A program made the position numbers and the translations under genes. The notes beneath the pieces were generated by a model. The model saw nothing but the letters and a program-made list of their open reading frames with translations, was not told where the DNA came from and made no database searches. DNA of 64,000 bases from Escherichia phage muut. Location of the stretch: sequence record NC_052657.1; one strand, written 5' to 3'. Every line of letters begins with the position of its first letter. Positions within the stretch are counted from its first letter, which is position 1. Of the stretch, positions 426 to 61,952 are shown piece by piece.

Positions 426-679
426 CACTTTATCATGTAACTACCGAAGGTGATTGCGAAGGTCGTACCACAAAAGATTTAGGGTATGTCGAAGCAGATT
501 CGCCTGAACATGCAATTAAGTATCTGCACTCTATTGGTAAGTATGCTTATTATGAATATTATATCCATGAAATTGAGGAAAATCCTATACAAGTAGCAAC
601 ACCTATGGTAGAGTTGGAACATCTTAAAGCAAAAGTTAAAACTGGCAGCACATCTGGATTTAAGGGGGTAGTACAATGA
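422..679 (+). CDS. hypothetical early protein
   Basis: 85 aa ORF, ATGA overlap with upstream gene. Confidence 0.5.
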   Translation: MTLYHVTTEGDCEGRTTKDLGYVEADSPEHAIKYLHSIGKYAYYEYYIHEIEENPIQVATPMVELEHLKAKVKTGSTSGFKGVVQ

Positions 680-945
680 AAATTCGTGATAATATTGCAG
701 ACTACATTGTAACTTGTGAAGATGGTACAGACGTTTTGCTTCCGCAACCAATTGTTTGGGAGGATGGTGAAATGTACCGTATAGCTACGGAACATTATAA
801 AGGTATTGACATTAAAGCTCTTTGTGCTATGCTTGTCGAAGATCAAGAATCTGATCTCTCAGTTGTAACATATCAAGATGTGTATGAAATCTGTGAAACT
901 TTACTACAAATGCATGAAGATGGACAAGAGGTGTTTCCAAAATGA
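676..945 (+). CDS. hypothetical early protein
   Basis: 89 aa ORF, ATGA overlap, acidic. Confidence 0.5.
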   Translation: MKIRDNIADYIVTCEDGTDVLLPQPIVWEDGEMYRIATEHYKGIDIKALCAMLVEDQESDLSVVTYQDVYEICETLLQMHEDGQEVFPK

Positions 946-56365: not shown

Positions 56366-56412
56366 ATAATTTTACCTCTTAATGTGATAAGAAACATTCT
56401 CCCTTATCACTC

Positions 56413-56442
56413 ATTTTATCACGAAAAACAACTCTTTGTCAA
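56413..56442 (-). promoter_or_regulatory. promoter candidate on - strand (TTGACA-18-TAAAAT)
   Basis: On - strand TTGACA (56442-56437), 18 nt, TAAAAT (56418-56413). Confidence 0.35.
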
Positions 56443-56445
56443 GAC

Positions 56446-56474
56446 AAATAAAAAGCCCCGCCGAAGCGAGGCTT
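56446..56474 (-). terminator. rho-independent terminator after tape measure gene
   Basis: On - strand AGCCTCGC-TTCG-GCGGGGCT then TTTTATTTG. Confidence 0.55.
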
Positions 56475-56480
56475 TATGCA

Positions 56481-58463
56481 TTAACCACCAGTAGAAGATT
56501 GTCCACTGCTTAACTGAAGAGTTAAACCTTGTGAGAAGTTACTAAAACTGGTATTCATTGTCGCATCTAGATAATTACTAAAACCATAGCCATCTGGAAT
56601 AACATTAATCTGGAATGCGTTATCTGGGATAACAACCGTATTCTCTACACTTAATGGTACTGGAACACCTTGGCGTGGTGTTAGCATAGATGCTGTTAAA
56701 TCAGGTCTATTGTAACCGATACTAGAAGCACTTGGGTTTAAGGCACTAGTTAAGAAACTACTATCAAAGTCACCTAAAGGTTGATTTTCAGGTTTATATT
56801 GATCTCTTCCAATAGGCCAATAAGCCCAAGGATTACCACCAACCTGTGCATCGTACCCATACTGCGTACCATTATAATAATCTCTTACAGCTTCTTTAGT
56901 ATTGTTTTTTGGCCCAACCTTATTTGAAAAATCAAGGAAATATTTCGCAATTTTTGCAAGGCTACTTACAATACTACCAGACATTTCACCAAGACCACGA
57001 GCAGCTTCTTGGAAAGTTTTCATATTCTCTGCAAAATCTGGTGCAGATTTTAAACCATCCATGAATCCTATAAGTAAGTTATTGGTAAAACCTTCTCCTG
57101 CTGCACTAATTTGTGCTCTTAGCTTAACAAAATCTTGTGCTGCTTTGATGTTTTCATCGTTAAGAGTTGCTCCTGAATTTTTTAACATATCCAAGACTTT
57201 CATGTACTCTTTACCGTTATCCAAAAACATACGTTGGTAGTGCATTAAGTCATCACCAAGGTTTTCCATCAAACGACCAATTTGCGCGGAGTTCATTCCT
57301 CTTTTTTGACCTTCATTAACAAGTGCTTGAACAAAGTCTAAAGGTCTGTTCTGGAATTTAGCAACGTCTTCTTTTGACCAACCAAATTGGTTCATGATTT
57401 CATTAATACCACTATCTCCACCTTTCCATTTACCTGATTTTTCATCAAATTCAGAGTGGAGTACAGTATTACCTAAACGTTCACGAACGTCTTTAATATT
57501 GTCAATGGCTTTAATAATGCTGGCAGAGTCTACACCGTTCATCTCACCCCAAGTACGCATTGTTAAAATTGCATTAGGGTTTACCTGTACGTTCTGACCA
57601 CCTTTACTAACCATATTAATACGTTCTGCCGCAGTTGTGATACTTTCAGCTATTTTGCTTATACCTTGATATAAACCAGCACCTAAAAGAGCAGCACCAA
57701 ACATAGCAGGGTTAAGAGCAATAGCAGCATTACCTACACCAGATAGCTTACGTTGTCTATCTCGTTGTCTTGCTTCTTTCTCTCTTCTTTGCTGACGTTC
57801 GAAATCCTTTCTTTCTCTTTCTCGGATACGCTGTCTTCTTTTATCTTCTGCTTCTTGCAGACGGGCAATTCTACGTCTAGCTCTCTCTTCATCAAGAAGT
57901 TGTGCATTCTTCTCTCTATGAGATCTGCGTAGTTCTTCTAACTGTCTAGCCAAAGTATTATTCATTTGTTGGCTAGTGATTACACCTTTACGATAAAGTT
58001 CAACAGTTTCTTCTACAATCTTTTTAGATTTTTCTAGAATTCTGCTGTCTGCTTTTGTAAAAGGCATAGCTTTAAAACTAAAATCGTCTTGCTTCATATT
58101 AGCAAGTGCTGCACGTTTAGCGGCGGCTTCTGCGGCTCTTTCCTCTGGTGTCTTACGTCCTCCAGAAGATCCAGAACCACCTCTACCACTTCCTCCTTTT
58201 CCACCACCACCACTTGAACCTCCGGTTGGTGGGATTGGTGGAGGATTACCGCCGCCAAGACCTGACATTTGCTGCCTTATTCTTTTAGCATACTCTTCCA
58301 TACTTTTAAACTGACGACGCATTTTAGTCATATTTAAAGATGGTTCAATAGATTCTGTAAAAGTTTTAAGGTTTTTAATTGCGTCTTTAGTATTTTTTAA
58401 ACTGTCTTTATCTACAGTAAACGTTACTGTATTCTTAATCTTGGAAGTGTTAATTTCTAACAA
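56481..58463 (-). CDS. tail tape measure protein
   Basis: 660 aa; Gly/Pro-rich region, coiled-coil RRQR repeats, hydrophobic segment; follows chaperone pair. Confidence 0.65.
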   Translation of the reverse strand: MLEINTSKIKNTVTFTVDKDSLKNTKDAIKNLKTFTESIEPSLNMTKMRRQFKSMEEYAKRIRQQMSGLGGGNPPPIPPTGGSSGGGGKGGSGRGGSGSSGGRKTPEERAAEAAAKRAALANMKQDDFSFKAMPFTKADSRILEKSKKIVEETVELYRKGVITSQQMNNTLARQLEELRRSHREKNAQLLDEERARRRIARLQEAEDKRRQRIRERERKDFERQQRREKEARQRDRQRKLSGVGNAAIALNPAMFGAALLGAGLYQGISKIAESITTAAERINMVSKGGQNVQVNPNAILTMRTWGEMNGVDSASIIKAIDNIKDVRERLGNTVLHSEFDEKSGKWKGGDSGINEIMNQFGWSKEDVAKFQNRPLDFVQALVNEGQKRGMNSAQIGRLMENLGDDLMHYQRMFLDNGKEYMKVLDMLKNSGATLNDENIKAAQDFVKLRAQISAAGEGFTNNLLIGFMDGLKSAPDFAENMKTFQEAARGLGEMSGSIVSSLAKIAKYFLDFSNKVGPKNNTKEAVRDYYNGTQYGYDAQVGGNPWAYWPIGRDQYKPENQPLGDFDSSFLTSALNPSASSIGYNRPDLTASMLTPRQGVPVPLSVENTVVIPDNAFQINVIPDGYGFSNYLDATMNTSFSNFSQGLTLQLSSGQSSTGG

Positions 58464-58482
58464 GGGTAATCCTCCGTATTAC

Positions 58483-59240
58483 TTATGAATCTGGAATTAA
58501 TTTTTTCATAGCCGTATCCAGTTCTCTTATTGTTCTCTGTTGACCACGTTTAATATCCGCATCTTTAACGTGAAGATCTTGTACATAATCTTCGAATGTT
58601 AAATATTCATAAATTTTAAGTAGATAATCTACACCATAATTATCTAACGAGGACAAGGTTTCGGAGGTATTCTTAATTACCTTACAAAGAATTACTTCAT
58701 ACCATGTCAAGCTAAGGGTTTGTGAGGCAATTTCAATTGCTGATTTAATTGCCGGACTTAACTCTTCGCTAGAGTCTCTATTCCTTGAAATTGGGTCAAC
58801 AGTTTTCCGAAACCTCGTTTGAAAAAAGGGGCATAGTTCACCTCAAGAACTTTTGCAGCTAAGTCAACAACTAATTCTGGGTGAGCAAAAAACAATTCAT
58901 CAAAATTATCGGAAACACTGTGACCTGCTTCTGTGTAAACTTCATCTAAAATTTTACGTAAGAATGCGGCTAAGTTTTTTTCTTCCAGACCACTGAATAA
59001 CTGGATCAGCGCCATAGCAATACGAGCTTCTAGATCTTCATCTGCTGACATAAGAGCAGTATTATACATTGTCATAGGAACAGCTAGTACACTACCTAGT
59101 TCTGGAATCCTTTCAAAAACTTTAGTTGGACTCCACTTGAGAACTCTAAATTTTACACTGCGTCCTTCATCCAGATCAATTTCAACCATTACTTCTGGAC
59201 GAGCAAATTTTGCAATAGTATTATCTTTTTGTTGTTCCAT
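58483..59240 (-). CDS. tail assembly chaperone GT-like fusion by programmed -1 frameshift
   Basis: Slippery T-TTT-TTC at 58821-58827; -1 frame open from there through the 75 aa ORF (TTG-only start) to stop at 58483. Confidence 0.5.
58758..59240 (-). CDS. tail assembly chaperone (G-like, zero-frame product)
   Basis: 160 aa ORF between tube and tape measure; slippery heptamer 61 nt before its stop. Confidence 0.6.
   Translation of the reverse strand: MEQQKDNTIAKFARPEVMVEIDLDEGRSVKFRVLKWSPTKVFERIPELGSVLAVPMTMYNTALMSADEDLEARIAMALIQLFSGLEEKNLAAFLRKILDEVYTEAGHSVSDNFDELFFAHPELVVDLAAKVLEVNYAPFFKRGFGKLLTQFQGIETLAKS
58821..58827 (-). promoter_or_regulatory. -1 ribosomal frameshift slippery heptamer (T TTT TTC)
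   Basis: On - strand C CCT TTT TTC AAA in zero frame; X XXY YYZ with X=T, Y=T, Z=C. Confidence 0.5.
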
Positions 59241-59262
59241 TATTTCCTCTCTCTTTAAAAAT

Positions 59263-59287
59263 AAAGGGCATTTCTGCCCTTTTTATT
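59263..59287 (-). terminator. hairpin/terminator between tube and chaperone genes
   Basis: AGGGCA-GAAA-TGCCCT with T/A tracts on both sides. Confidence 0.45.
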
Positions 59288-59765
59288 ACTGAATAGTTAG
59301 AGCACTAATAGAGTTAAGTGCGTTAACACCAACACCTACAGTAGAACGAAGTAGGCTTGCATCTTTAAGACCAATTACCCATTGGTTTTCTTGAATAGTT
59401 TCACCAATAGTATCGTCCGGTTGGCTTTGAATCCAACCAATTGTGCTGATATAATATCCGCGAGGGTCTTCTAGATATACGCTAAATGCTACTTGACGAG
59501 TAGAATACATCGTTTGTGCATAAGCAGCAAGAACTTCGTTTGCTGGGGAAGTACGTTGCAGTGACATTGTTAGCGTACCTAAGCGGTTACGACTAAGCGC
59601 CAAGGAAACGTCACCATCAGTACCTGAATATGGGTTGATGATATCGTTAGTTTTGTTAATAACAATTTTGGTATCTGCGGCGAAACCCCAAGGTTCCCAA
59701 CCACCCAAAGACAGGATTACTTGAGAAGGATCATAGGCCATTACGCCAGTAAGCATTTTATCCAA
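59286..59765 (-). CDS. tail tube protein
   Basis: 159 aa, directly downstream of sheath and upstream of chaperone/tape measure. Confidence 0.5.
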   Translation of the reverse strand: MDKMLTGVMAYDPSQVILSLGGWEPWGFAADTKIVINKTNDIINPYSGTDGDVSLALSRNRLGTLTMSLQRTSPANEVLAAYAQTMYSTRQVAFSVYLEDPRGYYISTIGWIQSQPDDTIGETIQENQWVIGLKDASLLRSTVGVGVNALNSISALTIQ

Positions 59766-59796
59766 AGTGGATCTCCTTTTATACTACTTTTCATAT

Positions 59797-59816
59797 AAGC
59801 GGGGTTGCCCCCGCTG
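59797..59816 (-). terminator. hairpin between sheath and tube genes (attenuator-like)
   Basis: GCGGGG-TTG-CCCCCGC; weak U tract. Confidence 0.35.
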
Positions 59817-59823
59817 CTTTTAA

Positions 59824-61230
59824 TTATGAAGATACAGTAGAGCTATTGGAATTCTGGCTATTTGCAGTGCGGTTCGTCAGAACGTTTACCTGCACTTTAA
59901 CATAGTGGAAGAATCCAGCATATACGTATTCAATAACCATACCATCAACCAAACGTGCATTGATTTGAGCATCAGTCATATCTGCACGAGATGGGATATA
60001 GATAGTAGGTTTAAGGCTTACCAGAAGTCCTGTTTCCTCTGAAGTTACTACCTCATTGGCAATAGAACCATTGTTAATACCTACTTGGATTGGGTTTGCA
60101 GTAACAGCCTGACGAATCAAAGCAAGACCAGCAGAAGTTGCTCTAACACCGCTACCAAGCATAGATTGCTGTTTAAATAGAGTGAACAGAGATTCTTCTA
60201 CGCGAGCTTTGAACCACAGAGCGTGTACCACATAGTCAACATAGAAACCACTAACCATGAAACCATCACGGTAGAACAGAACACCGTGTTCTTTACGGTA
60301 AATATTACCATTCTGTTGAACGATAAAGTTTTCTGCTGTCTGACCAAGTTTTTCAATCTCGATACCAACAAGGGTTTTACCATGCAGGGTAGTAGTACCT
60401 GGTGTTGCAGAGCAGATAGAACCAACTACAGCAGCCTCTGGGAACACTGTATCAGCGTTAGTCATCCACAATGCCATACAAGTGTTATTGTAGCCCATAT
60501 CACCTAAGCGTTCTAGAATGTTATCTTCTTCTTTAGTTAGAACACCTGGTTGCGAGGTAGAGAAGAAATACACTTTATCATGCTCTTCTACATAACCTGC
60601 TAGATCGATAATATCTTGTTCTGCGTGAGAATCAGATAGTAACCAGAACCAACTGTTTTCATAATCTGCAATTTTAGTAATATCTTCTAAGATATCATTT
60701 GCATATTCTACTTTAGTTGTGAATCCTGAACTATCCATAGTAGCGTATTTACCTGCAACTGGGGTTACAGTGATAACACTACCATCATTTGATACAGTGA
60801 AGAATTCTTTATACACTGTGTCTGCGTTGATCATTTCTGTTAAACCAACAACAATCTCTTGCGCAGTTGCAGTATCATCGGCAACAAACTTGAAGTCCTT
60901 GCTTTTTGAATTTGCTTTAATAGTGATAACGTAAGTTGCACTATCTTCAACTACTGGAGTTAGAGTCGTTTTAGAAACATCACGCTTACCGACGATAACT
61001 TGTTCTGGTGCGAACAGACCGTCAAATAGTAGTTTTGCCATTTTATAAGCTGGATCGGCAGTGCCAAAACCTGCTTGCAGAAGTGCGTCTGAAGAAGTGA
61101 AATAATCTACAAGATTGCCAGTAACGTTATGCCCTGTAAGAATTAGAGGGATATCAAACTGTGTTTCACTAATTGAAGTAGCACCGTAGGTAAGGGTTAC
61201 GGAAACTACCTTATCACGAAAAGTTGCCAT
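59824..61230 (-). CDS. tail sheath protein
   Basis: 468 aa, first gene of the sheath-tube-chaperone-tape measure order. Confidence 0.55.
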   Translation of the reverse strand: MATFRDKVVSVTLTYGATSISETQFDIPLILTGHNVTGNLVDYFTSSDALLQAGFGTADPAYKMAKLLFDGLFAPEQVIVGKRDVSKTTLTPVVEDSATYVITIKANSKSKDFKFVADDTATAQEIVVGLTEMINADTVYKEFFTVSNDGSVITVTPVAGKYATMDSSGFTTKVEYANDILEDITKIADYENSWFWLLSDSHAEQDIIDLAGYVEEHDKVYFFSTSQPGVLTKEEDNILERLGDMGYNNTCMALWMTNADTVFPEAAVVGSICSATPGTTTLHGKTLVGIEIEKLGQTAENFIVQQNGNIYRKEHGVLFYRDGFMVSGFYVDYVVHALWFKARVEESLFTLFKQQSMLGSGVRATSAGLALIRQAVTANPIQVGINNGSIANEVVTSEETGLLVSLKPTIYIPSRADMTDAQINARLVDGMVIEYVYAGFFHYVKVQVNVLTNRTANSQNSNSSTVSS

Positions 61231-61250
61231 TTATGCTCCTGTTAGAAACT

Positions 61251-61952
61251 TTATTCCAATGAATTATCCGTTGGGATATACTTAATTAATGATCCATCAT
61301 CAGTCGTCGTAAAGTAATAAGTTTTACTTCTGTGAGCAACAATGTAAATCTTATCCAAAGGAAGATCTATTGGAGTAGGATCATCGTAATCATCTCTGAA
61401 CGAATGAATGTTCATATTAATTGCTTCAATTTCGGTAGTTACTAAATCCTCAATAACCATCGTAGTATTGAATGTAAGAAATATTCTCGCTCTTTGTTCA
61501 GTTTTATCTCCATCCAGAACAGTGTTAGCCTGTGCAACATTTGTTGCAGATAAGAAGCTAATACCTTTGGAATAAAGATACTGGTATTTTAATTCATCTG
61601 CACCACGAAGTGCCGCAAGAACATAACTTAAAAGTGTCATGGGTCTTCCTCTAAAAGCCATAAGTTCTATTTCATACTTATTGTCCATTAGATAGGAAAA
61701 CACATCTTCACTAAAAGAATATTTTTGTGACCAACCACCTGAATCATCAGATGATACAATACGTAATGTCAGATATGGGGTTGTTGGTTTAACAAATGGT
61801 TTATCCATAGCATAAACCGGAAGCCCCACTAGTCTTTGTAAGAACTTAGCGATATTTAATAATATCGTATTTTCATACAATTCAATTTGTTCATAGATAT
61901 TAGCCAAAATTACCACCCTCCTCAGAATATGAATAGGTGTTATTCTGGTCAT
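61251..61952 (-). CDS. neck / tail completion protein (hypothetical)
   Basis: 233 aa ORF; start uncertain (overlaps upstream ORF by 53 nt). Confidence 0.4.
   Translation of the reverse strand: MTRITPIHILRRVVILANIYEQIELYENTILLNIAKFLQRLVGLPVYAMDKPFVKPTTPYLTLRIVSSDDSGGWSQKYSFSEDVFSYLMDNKYEIELMAFRGRPMTLLSYVLAALRGADELKYQYLYSKGISFLSATNVAQANTVLDGDKTEQRARIFLTFNTTMVIEDLVTTEIEAINMNIHSFRDDYDDPTPIDLPLDKIYIVAHRSKTYYFTTTDDGSLIKYIPTDNSLE

What the first reader, a model, noticed from the sequence alone, without database searches (positions are those of the whole stretch)
58483..59240. Programmed -1 frameshift signal in the tail assembly chaperone pair
On the - strand the 160 aa chaperone ORF contains the heptamer T-TTT-TTC (58821-58827; C CCT TTT TTC AAA in the zero frame) 61 nt before its stop. 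The -1 frame is open from that point through the downstream 75 aa ORF, which has only a TTG start and no independent RBS, down to 58483. This is the conserved G/GT arrangement just upstream of the tape measure gene and would give a fusion of about 250 aa.
Basis: seen in the sequence. Interest (0 to 1): 0.55.

Follow-up and report, generated by a model that had tools for sequence, protein, structure and literature searches.

The report
Unannotated tail-chaperone ribosomal frameshift site
This phi92-like E. coli phage carries the classic "slippery" signal that lets ribosomes occasionally shift frame and make a longer version of its tail-assembly chaperone; the signal is real and strongly conserved, but it is an ordinary, well-known phage device that database annotators have missed in this group.

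Summary
On the minus strand a 160-aa tail assembly chaperone gene (58758-59240, Pfam Phage_TAC_15) contains T TTT TTC (58827-58821) in the zero frame. The -1 frame is open from there to 58483 and would give a 252-aa fusion. The gene pair lies between the tail tube and tape measure genes.

The window is a Justusliebigvirus, 99.9% identical to phage EmilieFrey.

Comparative evidence supports a programmed -1 frameshift:
- All 14 Stephanstirmvirinae and Vequintavirinae relatives, and 33 IMG/VR loci, keep exactly (CCT|TGT) TTT TTC at the homologous Phe-Phe. Other invariant Phe codons vary freely.
- The -1 frame is always open, giving fusions of 244-258 aa.
- The "TTG start" of the 75-aa ORF is an internal Leu codon (TTA/CTN in relatives) with no ribosome-binding site.
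- Sequence annotated as intergenic evolves as -1-frame coding.
- Citrobacter phage Moogle has the same heptamer at the homologous site, annotated there as a frameshift.

No conserved downstream RNA structure was found. A Shine-Dalgarno-like GAGG 10-13 nt upstream is conserved in this clade and may stimulate slippage.

None of 20 inspected relatives' records annotates the fusion.

Verdict: a new member of a known kind (lambda G/GT, P2 E/E+E'). Interest is low to moderate; the value is mainly as an annotation correction.

The parts
58758..59240 (-). Gene G: tail assembly chaperone, 160 aa (phi92 gp132 homologue), the zero-frame product
   Evidence: ATG ORF. Pfam PF21822 Phage_TAC_15 E=1.6e-22. 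phrog_3840 'tail assembly chaperone' E=4.4e-54. SD GAGAGGA upstream, duplex -8.2 kcal/mol.
58821..58830 (-). Slippery decamer CCCTTTTTTC, made of overlapping heptamers C CCT TTT (58830-58824) and T TTT TTC (58827-58821), in the zero frame of G (Pro138-Phe139-Phe140)
   Evidence: T TTT TTC is invariant in 14/14 relatives and in 33 IMG/VR loci. The same heptamer is at the homologous site of the annotated Moogle frameshift.
58839..58844 (-). Shine-Dalgarno-like GAGGTG inside G (codons Glu133-Val134). Its GAGG core lies 13 nt upstream of T TTT TTC and 10 nt upstream of C CCT TTT. Candidate 5' stimulator (inferred).
   Evidence: Anti-SD duplex -9.9 kcal/mol, as strong as real RBSs. Only 2.2% of 20-nt coding windows reach -9. 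P=0.09 under synonymous recoding. GAG is the minor Glu codon (24%). The element is <= -9.3 in 7/7 Stephanstirmvirinae, is present in Moogle, and is weak or absent in 5/7 Vequintavirinae.
58483..58821 (-). -1-frame segment translated after the shift (112 codons plus TAA). It comprises a disordered linker and a helical 'T' domain, and includes the annotated 75-aa ORF (phi92 gp133 homologue).
   Evidence: Open -1 frame. phrog_16039 (unknown function) E=3e-45. AF2 model: residues 1-16 disordered, helices at 23-35, 40-51, 56-62 and 64-108, mean pLDDT 80. Codon-position signature of -1-frame coding upstream of the annotated start.
58758..58842 (-). Overlap window in which the zero frame (G C-terminus) and the -1 frame are both open (82 nt plus the G stop codon)
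   Evidence: The -1 frame is closed upstream by TGA at 58845-58843. The decamer is the only X XXY YYZ site in this window.
58708..58710 (-). TTG that annotators use as the start of the 75-aa ORF; in fact an internal Leu codon of the fusion (Leu178)
   Evidence: Invariant Leu column encoded by TTG/TTA/CTC/CTG/CTA/CTT in relatives. No SD (+1.4 kcal/mol). Annotated and gene-caller start positions differ between records, giving products of 43-88 aa.
56481..58463 (-). Tape measure protein gene (660 aa, TTG start with GGAGG SD), the presumed client of G/GT
   Evidence: phrog_16051 full-length match. SD duplex -9.5. Annotated as TMP in relatives.
59286..59765 (-). Tail tube protein gene (159 aa), the presumed partner of the T domain
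   Evidence: PF11681 KPP10_Orf10 and phrog_280. phi92 gp131 is the tail tube protein in the cryo-EM study (PMC13450770).

Best explanation
This is the phi92-group version of the conserved G/GT (P2: E/E+E') tail-assembly-chaperone recoding cassette.

Most ribosomes translate gene G (58758-59240, minus strand) to its TAA stop and make the 160-aa chaperone. A minority slip back one nucleotide while the two tRNA-Phe (or tRNA-Pro plus tRNA-Phe) occupy the CCC-UUU-UUU-C run at 58830-58821. They then continue in the -1 frame to 58483 and make a 252-aa G-T fusion with junction ...NYAPFF|QTRFRK...

By analogy with lambda, G and the G part of GT coat the tape measure protein, while the C-terminal helical T domain recruits the tail tube protein. 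Neither product ends up in the virion. The 75-aa 'hypothetical protein' annotated downstream is not an independent gene but the C-terminal part of GT.

Slippage probably depends on the heptamer itself. The conserved Shine-Dalgarno-like GAGG 10-13 nt upstream may assist it, as in dnaX. No 3' RNA structure is needed.

Shown here: the anatomy, its conservation, the coding signature and the absence of an independent start. Inferred: that the fusion protein is made, at what ratio, its chaperone role, and the SD effect.
For: (a) Anatomy is as stated.

(b) G is a TAC-family protein, PF21822 E=1.6e-22. The gene order is sheath, tube, G, T, TMP.

(c) T TTT TTC sits at the homologous Phe-Phe in 7 Stephanstirmvirinae and 7 Vequintavirinae, whose G proteins are 26-35% identical to the window's. 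Fusion lengths are 244-258 aa. Vibrio phage S4-7 has A AAT TTT at the same place.

(d) Synonymous constraint: of 19 invariant-residue columns with degenerate codons, only F139 (TTT), F140 (TTC) and one Phe in the dual-coding overlap have an invariant codon. The other invariant Phe columns split 8:6 and 6:8. The preceding codon always ends in T (CCT or TGT).

(e) All 33 IMG/VR loci (29 non-identical) have (CCT|TGT) TTT TTC, and the -1 frame is open for 101-127 codons.

(f) The TTG 'start' is a Leu column that uses non-start codons in relatives, and no SD precedes any candidate start.

(g) The 16 codons after the G stop, annotated as intergenic, vary at pos3 0.65 against pos2 0.18 in the -1 frame. 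The same pattern holds in Vequintavirinae, 0.52 against 0.23.

(h) Of 68 in-frame slippery heptamers in the window, only this site gives a long extension. Of 48 Phe-Phe dipeptides, only this one is T TTT TTC.

(i) Moogle (Ounavirinae) carries an annotated joined CDS. Its slip site is T TTT TTC in LEANFGSFF, which aligns with LEVNYAPFF of the window (BLASTP E=5e-5). It also has the same GGAGG 13 nt upstream.

(j) Precedent: P2 E/E+E' shifts -1 at TTTTTTG in E. coli, with no downstream hairpin (PMC3091744). A -1 frameshift at a GTTTTT motif has been proposed for the sister clades Vandenendeviridae and Andersonviridae (PMC12846349).

(k) gp132 and gp133 are not among the virion proteins resolved in phi92 cryo-EM, as expected for chaperones.

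(l) No in-frame natural G-T fusion exists among 1.84 billion representatives or the 5.8 billion clusters. The two-frame arrangement is therefore always maintained.
Against: There is no direct evidence that the 252-aa protein is made: no proteomics, ribosome profiling or reporter data for any phi92- or rV5-like phage were found. U-rich heptamers are less shift-prone in E. coli than A AAA AAG (PMC5009743). No significant or conserved 3' stimulatory structure is present: z-scores are 0.19, 0.10 and 1.19, and the alifold energy is -1.22 kcal/mol with no covariation in the hairpin next to the slip site. Efficiency may therefore be low. The upstream SD-like element is not universal; it is weak or absent in 5 of 7 Vequintavirinae, and it is partly explained by the conserved Leu-Glu-Val peptide (P=0.09). 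The IMG/VR loci were retrieved with a peptide pattern that requires Phe-Phe, so only the codon choice, not the dipeptide, is an independent test there. The T domain has no detectable similarity to lambda gpT or to any solved structure, so its tube-binding role is purely by analogy.
Confidence: 0.88

Rival explanations
1. Transcriptional slippage. RNA polymerase occasionally adds one extra U on the T6 run. Standard translation of those mRNAs then gives the same G-T fusion (P-F-F-Q-T...) without any ribosomal shift.
For: A one-base insertion in the run gives exactly the same protein sequence (inference). The homopolymeric T6 and the T at the end of the preceding codon are strictly conserved, which would also suit polymerase slippage. 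No 3' ribosome-stalling structure is present.
Against: Productive bacterial transcriptional slippage is described for runs of about 9 A or T (PMC5009743). Here the run is exactly 6 in all 47 loci and is never longer. Vibrio phage S4-7 has the heteropolymeric A AAT TTT at the homologous site. That sequence supports tandem tRNA slippage but not polymerase slippage. An SD-like element at dnaX-type spacing points to a ribosomal mechanism. P2 uses TTTTTTG, and its fusion was verified as a translational -1 shift.
Confidence: 0.06
2. Two separate genes. The 75-aa ORF is translated on its own from TTG 58710, from another non-canonical start, or by termination-reinitiation after G. The heptamer is then just a Phe-Phe dipeptide.
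For: All 20 inspected GenBank/RefSeq records of relatives annotate it this way. The G stop lies only 47 nt upstream of the TTG.
Against: No SD precedes any candidate start (+1.4 and -1.4 kcal/mol). The TTG column is TTA/CTC/CTG/CTA/CTT in relatives. Annotated starts are inconsistent, giving products of 43-88 aa. Conserved residues and a -1-frame codon signature extend upstream of every annotated start, back through the 'intergenic' gap. The -1 frame is open back to the heptamer in all 47 loci. Synonymous positions of the heptamer are frozen.
Confidence: 0.04
3. The coincidence has no function. The slippery run and the open -1 frame are by-products of AT-rich composition and of a conserved peptide motif, and the downstream ORF is non-coding or decaying.
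For: The genome is 37.5% GC and in-frame slippery heptamers are frequent, about 1 per 290 codons. Phe-Phe lies inside a conserved protein motif.
Against: AT-rich sequence is rich in stop codons. The typical -1 run after a heptamer is only a few codons, against 112 here. The T region is conserved at protein level across subfamilies and has a purifying-selection codon pattern. The AF2 model is confident, with pLDDT above 90 over the helical core. Codon choice at the heptamer is invariant, unlike other Phe codons.
Confidence: 0.02

Closest known systems
Phage lambda G / GT tail assembly chaperones (Levin et al. 1993; Xu, Hendrix & Duda 2004, 2013, 2014; reviewed in PMC5009743)
   Same: Two overlapping ORFs lie between the major tail (tube) gene and the tape measure gene. 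[quoted passage not shown] The downstream ORF has no start of its own. The fusion is a minor product and neither protein is in the virion (for the lambda facts; for this locus).
   Different: There is no detectable sequence similarity to gpG or gpT. The heptamer is T TTT TTC, decoded by tRNA-Phe, rather than G GGA AAG. The host phage has a contractile tail. The ratio and binding partners are untested here.
Phage P2 E / E+E' (Christie et al. 2002, cited via PMC3091744)
   Same: P2 is a contractile-tailed E. coli phage with the order sheath, tube, chaperone pair, tape measure. Its slippery site is a U6 run (TTTTTTG) and no downstream hairpin is present. Its fusion has been experimentally verified.
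   Different: The P2 proteins are much smaller (91 and 142 aa) and belong to a different family. The last heptamer base is G, not C. No upstream SD-like element is reported.
Citrobacter phage Moogle 'tape measure chaperone' CPT_Moogle67/68 (Ounavirinae; KM236239; PMC4319497)
   Same: This is a homologous protein (BLASTP E=5e-5). T TTT TTC lies at the homologous ...LE(A/V)N(F/Y)GxFF motif, with GGAGG 13 nt upstream. It is already annotated as a joined (frameshifted) CDS. It is the closest annotated relative of this site.
   Different: The proteins are shorter (133 and 212 aa) and about 30% identical over the C-terminal half only. Moogle belongs to a different family (Andersonviridae). The frameshift there is also only predicted.
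-1 PRF at the GTTTTT motif proposed for Vandenendeviridae (Pakpunavirus Adele) and Andersonviridae TAC loci (PMC12846349, Dec 2025)
   Same: The argument is the same: a downstream 'hypothetical protein' without a start, a -1 frame open in all alleles, and a conserved poly-T motif at the 3' end of TAC-N. These clades are evolutionarily related to Stephanstirmvirinae and Vequintavirinae.
   Different: That paper did not analyse the TAC locus of Stephanstirmvirinae or Vequintavirinae. The present locus extends the pattern to them and defines the full heptamer and its frame.
E. coli dnaX and IS-element -1 frameshift cassettes with a 5' Shine-Dalgarno stimulator (PMC5009743)
   Same: An internal SD-like sequence roughly 10-13 nt 5' of an X XXY YYZ heptamer.
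   Different: dnaX also has a strong 3' stem-loop and shifts at about 50% on A AAA AAG. Here no 3' structure is found and the SD role is only inferred.

Membership tests
G/GT-type tail assembly chaperone -1 programmed frameshift (Xu et al. 2004 class) | Gene pair located between the major tail/tube protein gene and the tape measure gene, on the same strand | tested here: met
   Order on the minus strand: sheath 59824-61230, tube 59286-59765, G 58758-59240, T to 58483, TMP 56481-58463.
G/GT-type tail assembly chaperone -1 programmed frameshift (Xu et al. 2004 class) | Upstream ORF belongs to a tail assembly chaperone family | tested here: met
   PF21822 Phage_TAC_15, 80.8 bits against a cutoff of 22, E=1.6e-22. 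Four TAC PHROGs also match.
G/GT-type tail assembly chaperone -1 programmed frameshift (Xu et al. 2004 class) | [quoted passage not shown] | tested here: met
   T TTT TTC (and C CCT TTT) lies 20 codons before the G stop and is the only such site in the 82-nt overlap.
G/GT-type tail assembly chaperone -1 programmed frameshift (Xu et al. 2004 class) | Downstream ORF lacks its own functional start codon and RBS | tested here: met
   Anti-SD energies are +1.4 and -1.4 kcal/mol. The TTG is not conserved as a start codon.
G/GT-type tail assembly chaperone -1 programmed frameshift (Xu et al. 2004 class) | Arrangement (slip site, frame relation, fusion length) conserved in divergent relatives | tested here: met
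   14/14 GenBank relatives, 33/33 IMG/VR loci, and Moogle. The Vibrio phage has a different heptamer at the same place.
G/GT-type tail assembly chaperone -1 programmed frameshift (Xu et al. 2004 class) | Fusion protein actually synthesised at a low, fixed ratio to G and required for tail assembly | not testable with these tools
   No proteomic or reporter data were found for this phage group.
G/GT-type tail assembly chaperone -1 programmed frameshift (Xu et al. 2004 class) | G and GT absent from mature virions | tested here: inconclusive
   gp132 and gp133 are not in the list of proteins resolved in the phi92 cryo-EM structures. Absence from a reconstruction is not proof of absence from the virion.
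G/GT-type tail assembly chaperone -1 programmed frameshift (Xu et al. 2004 class) | T domain binds the major tail/tube protein | not testable with these tools
   The T part has no Pfam, PDB or fold match to characterised T domains. Only same-family uncharacterised phage proteins are hit.
dnaX/IS-type cassette with 5' SD stimulator | SD-like sequence about 10-14 nt 5' of the heptamer, conserved beyond what coding requires | tested here: inconclusive
   Present at -9.9 kcal/mol in the window, 7/7 in its subfamily, and in Moogle. It is weak or absent in 5/7 Vequintavirinae, and P=0.09 under synonymous recoding.
dnaX/IS-type cassette with 5' SD stimulator | 3' stem-loop or pseudoknot stimulator | tested here: not met
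   Fold z-scores are 0.19, 0.10 and 1.19. The alifold energy is -1.22 kcal/mol. The only stem near the site includes the heptamer itself and shows no covariation. Pseudoknots were not searched for formally.

The most novel reading that the evidence does not exclude
The frameshift cassette is not just a heptamer. It is a composite signal frozen at the nucleotide level: an SD-like GAGG, about 10-13 nt of spacer, the CCC-UUU-UUU-C double slip site, and the downstream GGUUUCG. This signal has been inherited across at least three large groups of virulent myoviruses (Ounavirinae, Vequintavirinae, Stephanstirmvirinae) and possibly the Pseudomonas Vandenendeviridae. In this reading, rRNA-mRNA pairing replaces a 3' RNA structure as the stimulator, making it a dnaX-like 5' stimulator in a phage G/GT site.
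Probability: 0.3. Interest if true: 0.4.

Novelty: new member of a known kind. Interest (0 to 1): 0.25.

Why it matters
The main value is as an annotation correction. In phi92-like and rV5-like phages, more than 360 database genomes carry this chaperone. Several of these phages are used or proposed for therapy or biocontrol. In all of them, the tail chaperone pair is recorded as a chaperone (or even a 'tail tube protein') plus a small 'hypothetical protein' with an arbitrary start. The real second product is most likely a fusion of about 250 aa.

The site also shows that one recoding site can be conserved to the nucleotide while the proteins around it diverge to about 30% identity. It offers a clean natural test case, in E. 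coli, for whether a U6-type heptamer with an upstream SD-like element and no 3' structure is sufficient for programmed slippage.

It does not open a new biological question.

Tried and rejected
- **Downstream stimulatory structure.** Seven single-sequence folds (window and relatives) had z-scores between -1.26 and +1.19 and no shared fold. RNAalifold on 11 divergent sequences gave -1.22 kcal/mol. The only helix near the site contains the heptamer itself and shows no compensatory changes. Rejected as a stimulator; pseudoknots were not formally excluded.
- **Natural in-frame G-T fusions.** These would have confirmed the link between the two ORFs. None appeared among 16 hits in 1.84 billion representatives or 17 hits in 5.8 billion clusters; all hits are 55-138 aa.
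- **Function of the T domain by similarity.** No Pfam hit was significant, PDB sequence search found nothing, and Foldseek against PDB found nothing. BFVD returned only same-family uncharacterised proteins.
- **Literature.** No paper links phi92, rV5, phAPEC8 or PVP-SE1 to a tail-chaperone frameshift.
- **An apparent start at ATG 58834 with a strong SD.** It came from scanning the wrong frame (corrected). It opens only a 12-codon +1-frame ORF and is absent in Tr1, phAPEC8 and PsgM04F.
- **A second 'extension' candidate.** CCCAAAC at 760 on ORF 559-846 (-) is on a spurious antisense ORF opposite a chain of plus-strand genes.
- **Phage tRNA-Phe as a modulator.** There are no tRNA genes in the window.
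Full report
**What the window is**

The region 56400-61300 is 99.9% identical to Escherichia phage EmilieFrey and 99% identical to many other Justusliebigvirus (phi92-like, Stephanstirmvirinae) genomes. Phi92 itself has identical G and T amino-acid sequences. On the minus strand the order is:
- tail sheath, 59824-61230 (DUF3383 / phrog_205)
- tail tube, 59286-59765 (KPP10_Orf10 / phrog_280)
- a 160-aa ORF, 58758-59240
- a 75-aa TTG ORF, 58483-58710
- the tape measure protein, 56481-58463 (phrog_16051)

The 160-aa protein is a tail assembly chaperone: Pfam PF21822 Phage_TAC_15, E=1.6e-22, and phrog_3840, E=4e-54.

**Checking the observation**

The sequence reads ...AAC TAT GCC CCT TTT TTC AAA CGA... 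in the frame set by the ATG at 59240. TTTTTTC (58827-58821) is therefore a canonical X XXY YYZ heptamer, T TTT TTC. Its last base is 61 nt before the first base of the TAA at 58760.

The -1 frame is closed by TGA at 58845-58843 and then open from 58842 to the TAA at 58485-58483. A shift on the heptamer gives 140 + 112 = 252 aa. The run is actually CCCTTTTTTC, which adds a second overlapping heptamer, C CCT TTT. A shift on either heptamer gives the same protein...NYAPFFQTRFRK....

**Is it more than chance?**

In-frame slippery heptamers are common in this 37.5% GC genome. There are 68 in 19,670 codons of gene-like ORFs, so one falling in a 27-codon overlap is roughly a 9% event.

What follows the heptamer is not ordinary. 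The typical -1 run after such a heptamer is only a few codons; here it is 112 codons, extending 92 codons past the zero-frame stop. The next best extension, 27 codons, lies on a spurious antisense ORF. Of 48 Phe-Phe dipeptides in the window's genes, only this one is encoded T TTT TTC. Phe-Phe otherwise prefers TTC in the first position, although TTT is the commoner Phe codon.

**No independent start for the downstream ORF**

The only canonical starts in the -1 ORF that would leave more than a few residues are TTG 58710 and TTG 58656. Their anti-SD duplex energies are +1.4 and -1.4 kcal/mol. Six of seven neighbouring annotated-type gene starts score -6.6 to -9.5 (the seventh, at 61952, scores -1.6), and the background median is -2.1.

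In a 14-sequence alignment, the TTG at 58710 falls in an invariant leucine column that relatives encode as TTA, CTC, CTG, CTA or CTT. None of these can initiate translation. Annotators and gene callers place the start at many different positions, giving products of 43 to 88 aa. That is what one expects when there is no real start.

**Comparative evidence**

I examined the locus in six further Stephanstirmvirinae: phAPEC8, Citrobacter Tr1, Klebsiella 05F01, KP2025 and phi1_175008, and PsgM04F. Their nucleotide identity to the window goes down to 65.7%. I also examined seven Vequintavirinae: Av-05, SalP219, GAP31, FV3, phiTE, pEa_SNUABM_55 and Mydo. Their G proteins are 26-35% identical to the window's.

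Every one of them has T TTT TTC at the homologous Phe-Phe of the motif LE(V/I/A)NYG(P/C)FF. Every one has an open -1 frame to a stop just before the tape measure gene (or, in phiTE, before an inserted ORF). Predicted fusions are 244-258 aa. Vibrio phage S4-7, the most distant hit, has a different heptamer, A AAT TTT, at the same place.

Among 19 alignment columns with an invariant residue and a degenerate codon, only three have an invariant codon: Phe139 (TTT), Phe140 (TTC), and a Phe inside the dual-coding overlap. The two other invariant Phe columns split 8:6 and 6:8. The codon before the heptamer is always CCT or TGT, which supplies the first T.

A scan of IMG/VR added 33 loci, 29 of them non-identical. 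All have (CCT|TGT) TTT TTC and 101-127 open -1 codons. That scan used a peptide pattern containing Phe-Phe, so only the codon choice is an independent test there.

The 16 codons just after the G stop are 'intergenic' in most records. In the -1 frame their mean pairwise differences are 0.33, 0.18 and 0.65 at codon positions 1, 2 and 3. In Vequintavirinae the values are 0.22, 0.23 and 0.52. This is the signature of protein-coding sequence in that frame.

Inside the overlap, the most variable position is the third position of the G frame. The G C-terminus therefore dominates there, and the -1 frame encodes a poorly constrained linker. AlphaFold agrees: residues 1-16 of the -1 segment are disordered. 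They are followed by a confident helical domain (helices 23-35, 40-51, 56-62 and 64-108; mean pLDDT 80, above 90 in the core).

**Link to an annotated case**

Citrobacter phage Moogle (Ounavirinae) carries a joined CDS 'tape measure chaperone', described in its announcement as having a translational frameshift. Its slip site is TTGGAGGCAAACTTCGGAAG-TTTTTTC-GAGG, inside LEANFGSFF. BLASTP aligns this motif with LEVNYAPFF of the window's G (E=5e-5).

A December 2025 paper argues for a conserved -1 frameshift at a GTTTTT motif in the chaperone locus of Vandenendeviridae and Andersonviridae. It notes that these clades are related to Vequintavirinae and Stephanstirmvirinae, but it does not analyse the chaperone locus of the latter two.

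Phage P2, a contractile-tailed coliphage, makes E+E' by a -1 shift at TTTTTTG without a downstream hairpin. The lambda paradigm is summarised in the Atkins et al. review: G and GT in about a 30:1 ratio, G binding the tape measure protein, T binding the tail tube protein, and neither present in virions.

**Stimulators**

Seven single-sequence folds downstream of the heptamer are no more stable than shuffles, with z-scores from -1.26 to +1.19, and they share no structure. RNAalifold on 11 divergent sequences gives -1.22 kcal/mol. The only helix near the site pairs the U-run itself with a downstream GGAAAA and shows no compensatory change. A 3' stimulator is therefore not supported; pseudoknots were not formally searched.

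Upstream, GAGGTG (58844-58839) pairs with the anti-SD at -9.9 kcal/mol, as strongly as genuine ribosome-binding sites here. Its GAGG core sits 13 nt before T TTT TTC and 10 nt before C CCT TTT. Several observations bear on it:
- Only 2.2% of 20-nt coding windows in the phage reach -9 kcal/mol.
- It uses the minor Glu codon GAG (24% of Glu codons).
- It is kept (<= -9.3) in 7/7 Stephanstirmvirinae while the neighbouring Leu and Val codons vary, and it is present in Moogle.
- The peptide Leu-Glu-Val by itself gives such an element 9% of the time.
- It is only moderate in three Vequintavirinae and absent in two.

5' SD stimulators are a known feature of dnaX and of many IS-element -1 frameshifts. 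I treat a stimulatory role here as a plausible but unproven hypothesis.

**Rivals**

Transcriptional slippage on the T6 run would give the same protein. However, bacterial slippage is described for runs of about 9. The run here is never longer than 6 in 47 loci. The Vibrio homologue uses a heteropolymeric heptamer, and the P2 precedent is translational. I give this rival about 6%.

Independent initiation of the 75-aa ORF (about 4%) and a functionless coincidence (about 2%) are contradicted by the start-codon, RBS, codon-position and conservation data above.

**What is not shown**

No experiment or proteomic dataset demonstrating the fusion in any phi92- or rV5-like phage was found. The recent phi92 cryo-EM study lists the virion proteins it resolved. 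Neither gp132 nor gp133 is among them, which is consistent with a chaperone role but not proof.

The T domain has no similarity to lambda gpT or to any solved structure, so tube binding is inferred by analogy. No natural in-frame G-T fusion exists in the large protein collections.

**Known or new**

None of the 20 GenBank/RefSeq records of relatives I opened annotates a joined CDS, including the CPT-annotated phages Mydo and Murica. None of the 60 spread hits to the G protein shows two chaperone features over G. Some records label G a 'tail tube protein'.

The instance is therefore unannotated in this phage group, but the kind is textbook. I file it as a new member of a known kind, with confidence 0.88 that a programmed -1 ribosomal frameshift produces a G-T fusion, and interest 0.25.

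Noticed in passing
window 59263-59282 (minus strand), between the tube gene stop (59286) and the G start (59240): There is a terminator-like hairpin, AAAGGGCAGAAATGCCCTTT, followed by ATTTTT (8 pairs). An equivalent terminator is annotated at the same place in phAPEC8 and Murica. It may attenuate read-through so that the chaperones and tape measure protein are made at lower levels than sheath and tube.
   Followed up: partly
L001 (MZ501063 EmilieFrey) bas61_0016; also JohannJBalmer: BASEL-collection records label the chaperone G as a second 'tail tube protein'. Pfam and PHROG place it clearly in tail assembly chaperone families. This looks like an annotation error that can propagate by homology.
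   Followed up: partly
GenBank MG065645, MG065689, MG065650 and other 'Campylobacter phage' records: Unannotated records named Campylobacter phage (host C. jejuni) are 99% identical to this coliphage region, or to rV5-like coliphages. They are probably mislabelled or contaminant coliphages rather than true Campylobacter phages.
   Followed up: no
window-wide gene-like ORFs: Phe-Phe dipeptides use TTC in the first codon in 32 of 48 cases, although TTT is 64% of all Phe codons. This suggests general avoidance of long T runs (slippery or error-prone) inside ordinary genes.
   Followed up: partly
window 58834 (minus strand): The internal SD-like GAGGTG is followed 4 nt later by an ATG in the +1 frame, which opens a 12-codon ORF (MPLFSNEVSENC*). 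The ATG is absent in Tr1, phAPEC8 and PsgM04F, so it is probably fortuitous. It could still sequester initiating ribosomes in this phage.
   Followed up: partly
L015 (phiTE NC_020201) 1600-2157: In Pectobacterium phage phiTE the chaperone pair is not followed directly by the tape measure gene. Instead there is an annotated terminator, a 48-aa ORF and a gene similar to one from phage JSE. This looks like an insertion between T and the tape measure gene.
   Followed up: no
L020 (OR584014 Pseudomonas phage PsgM04F): A phage reported on Pseudomonas coronafaciens carries a chaperone 83% identical to the window's, with the same slip site. It is effectively a Stephanstirmvirinae-type tail module in a phage assigned to a very different host.
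   Followed up: no
window 58463 (minus strand): The tape measure gene starts with TTG preceded by a strong GGAGG (duplex -9.5 kcal/mol), only 20 nt after the -1-frame stop of T. The tube gene also starts with TTG. Weak start codons paired with strong SDs seem to be common in this tail module.
   Followed up: no
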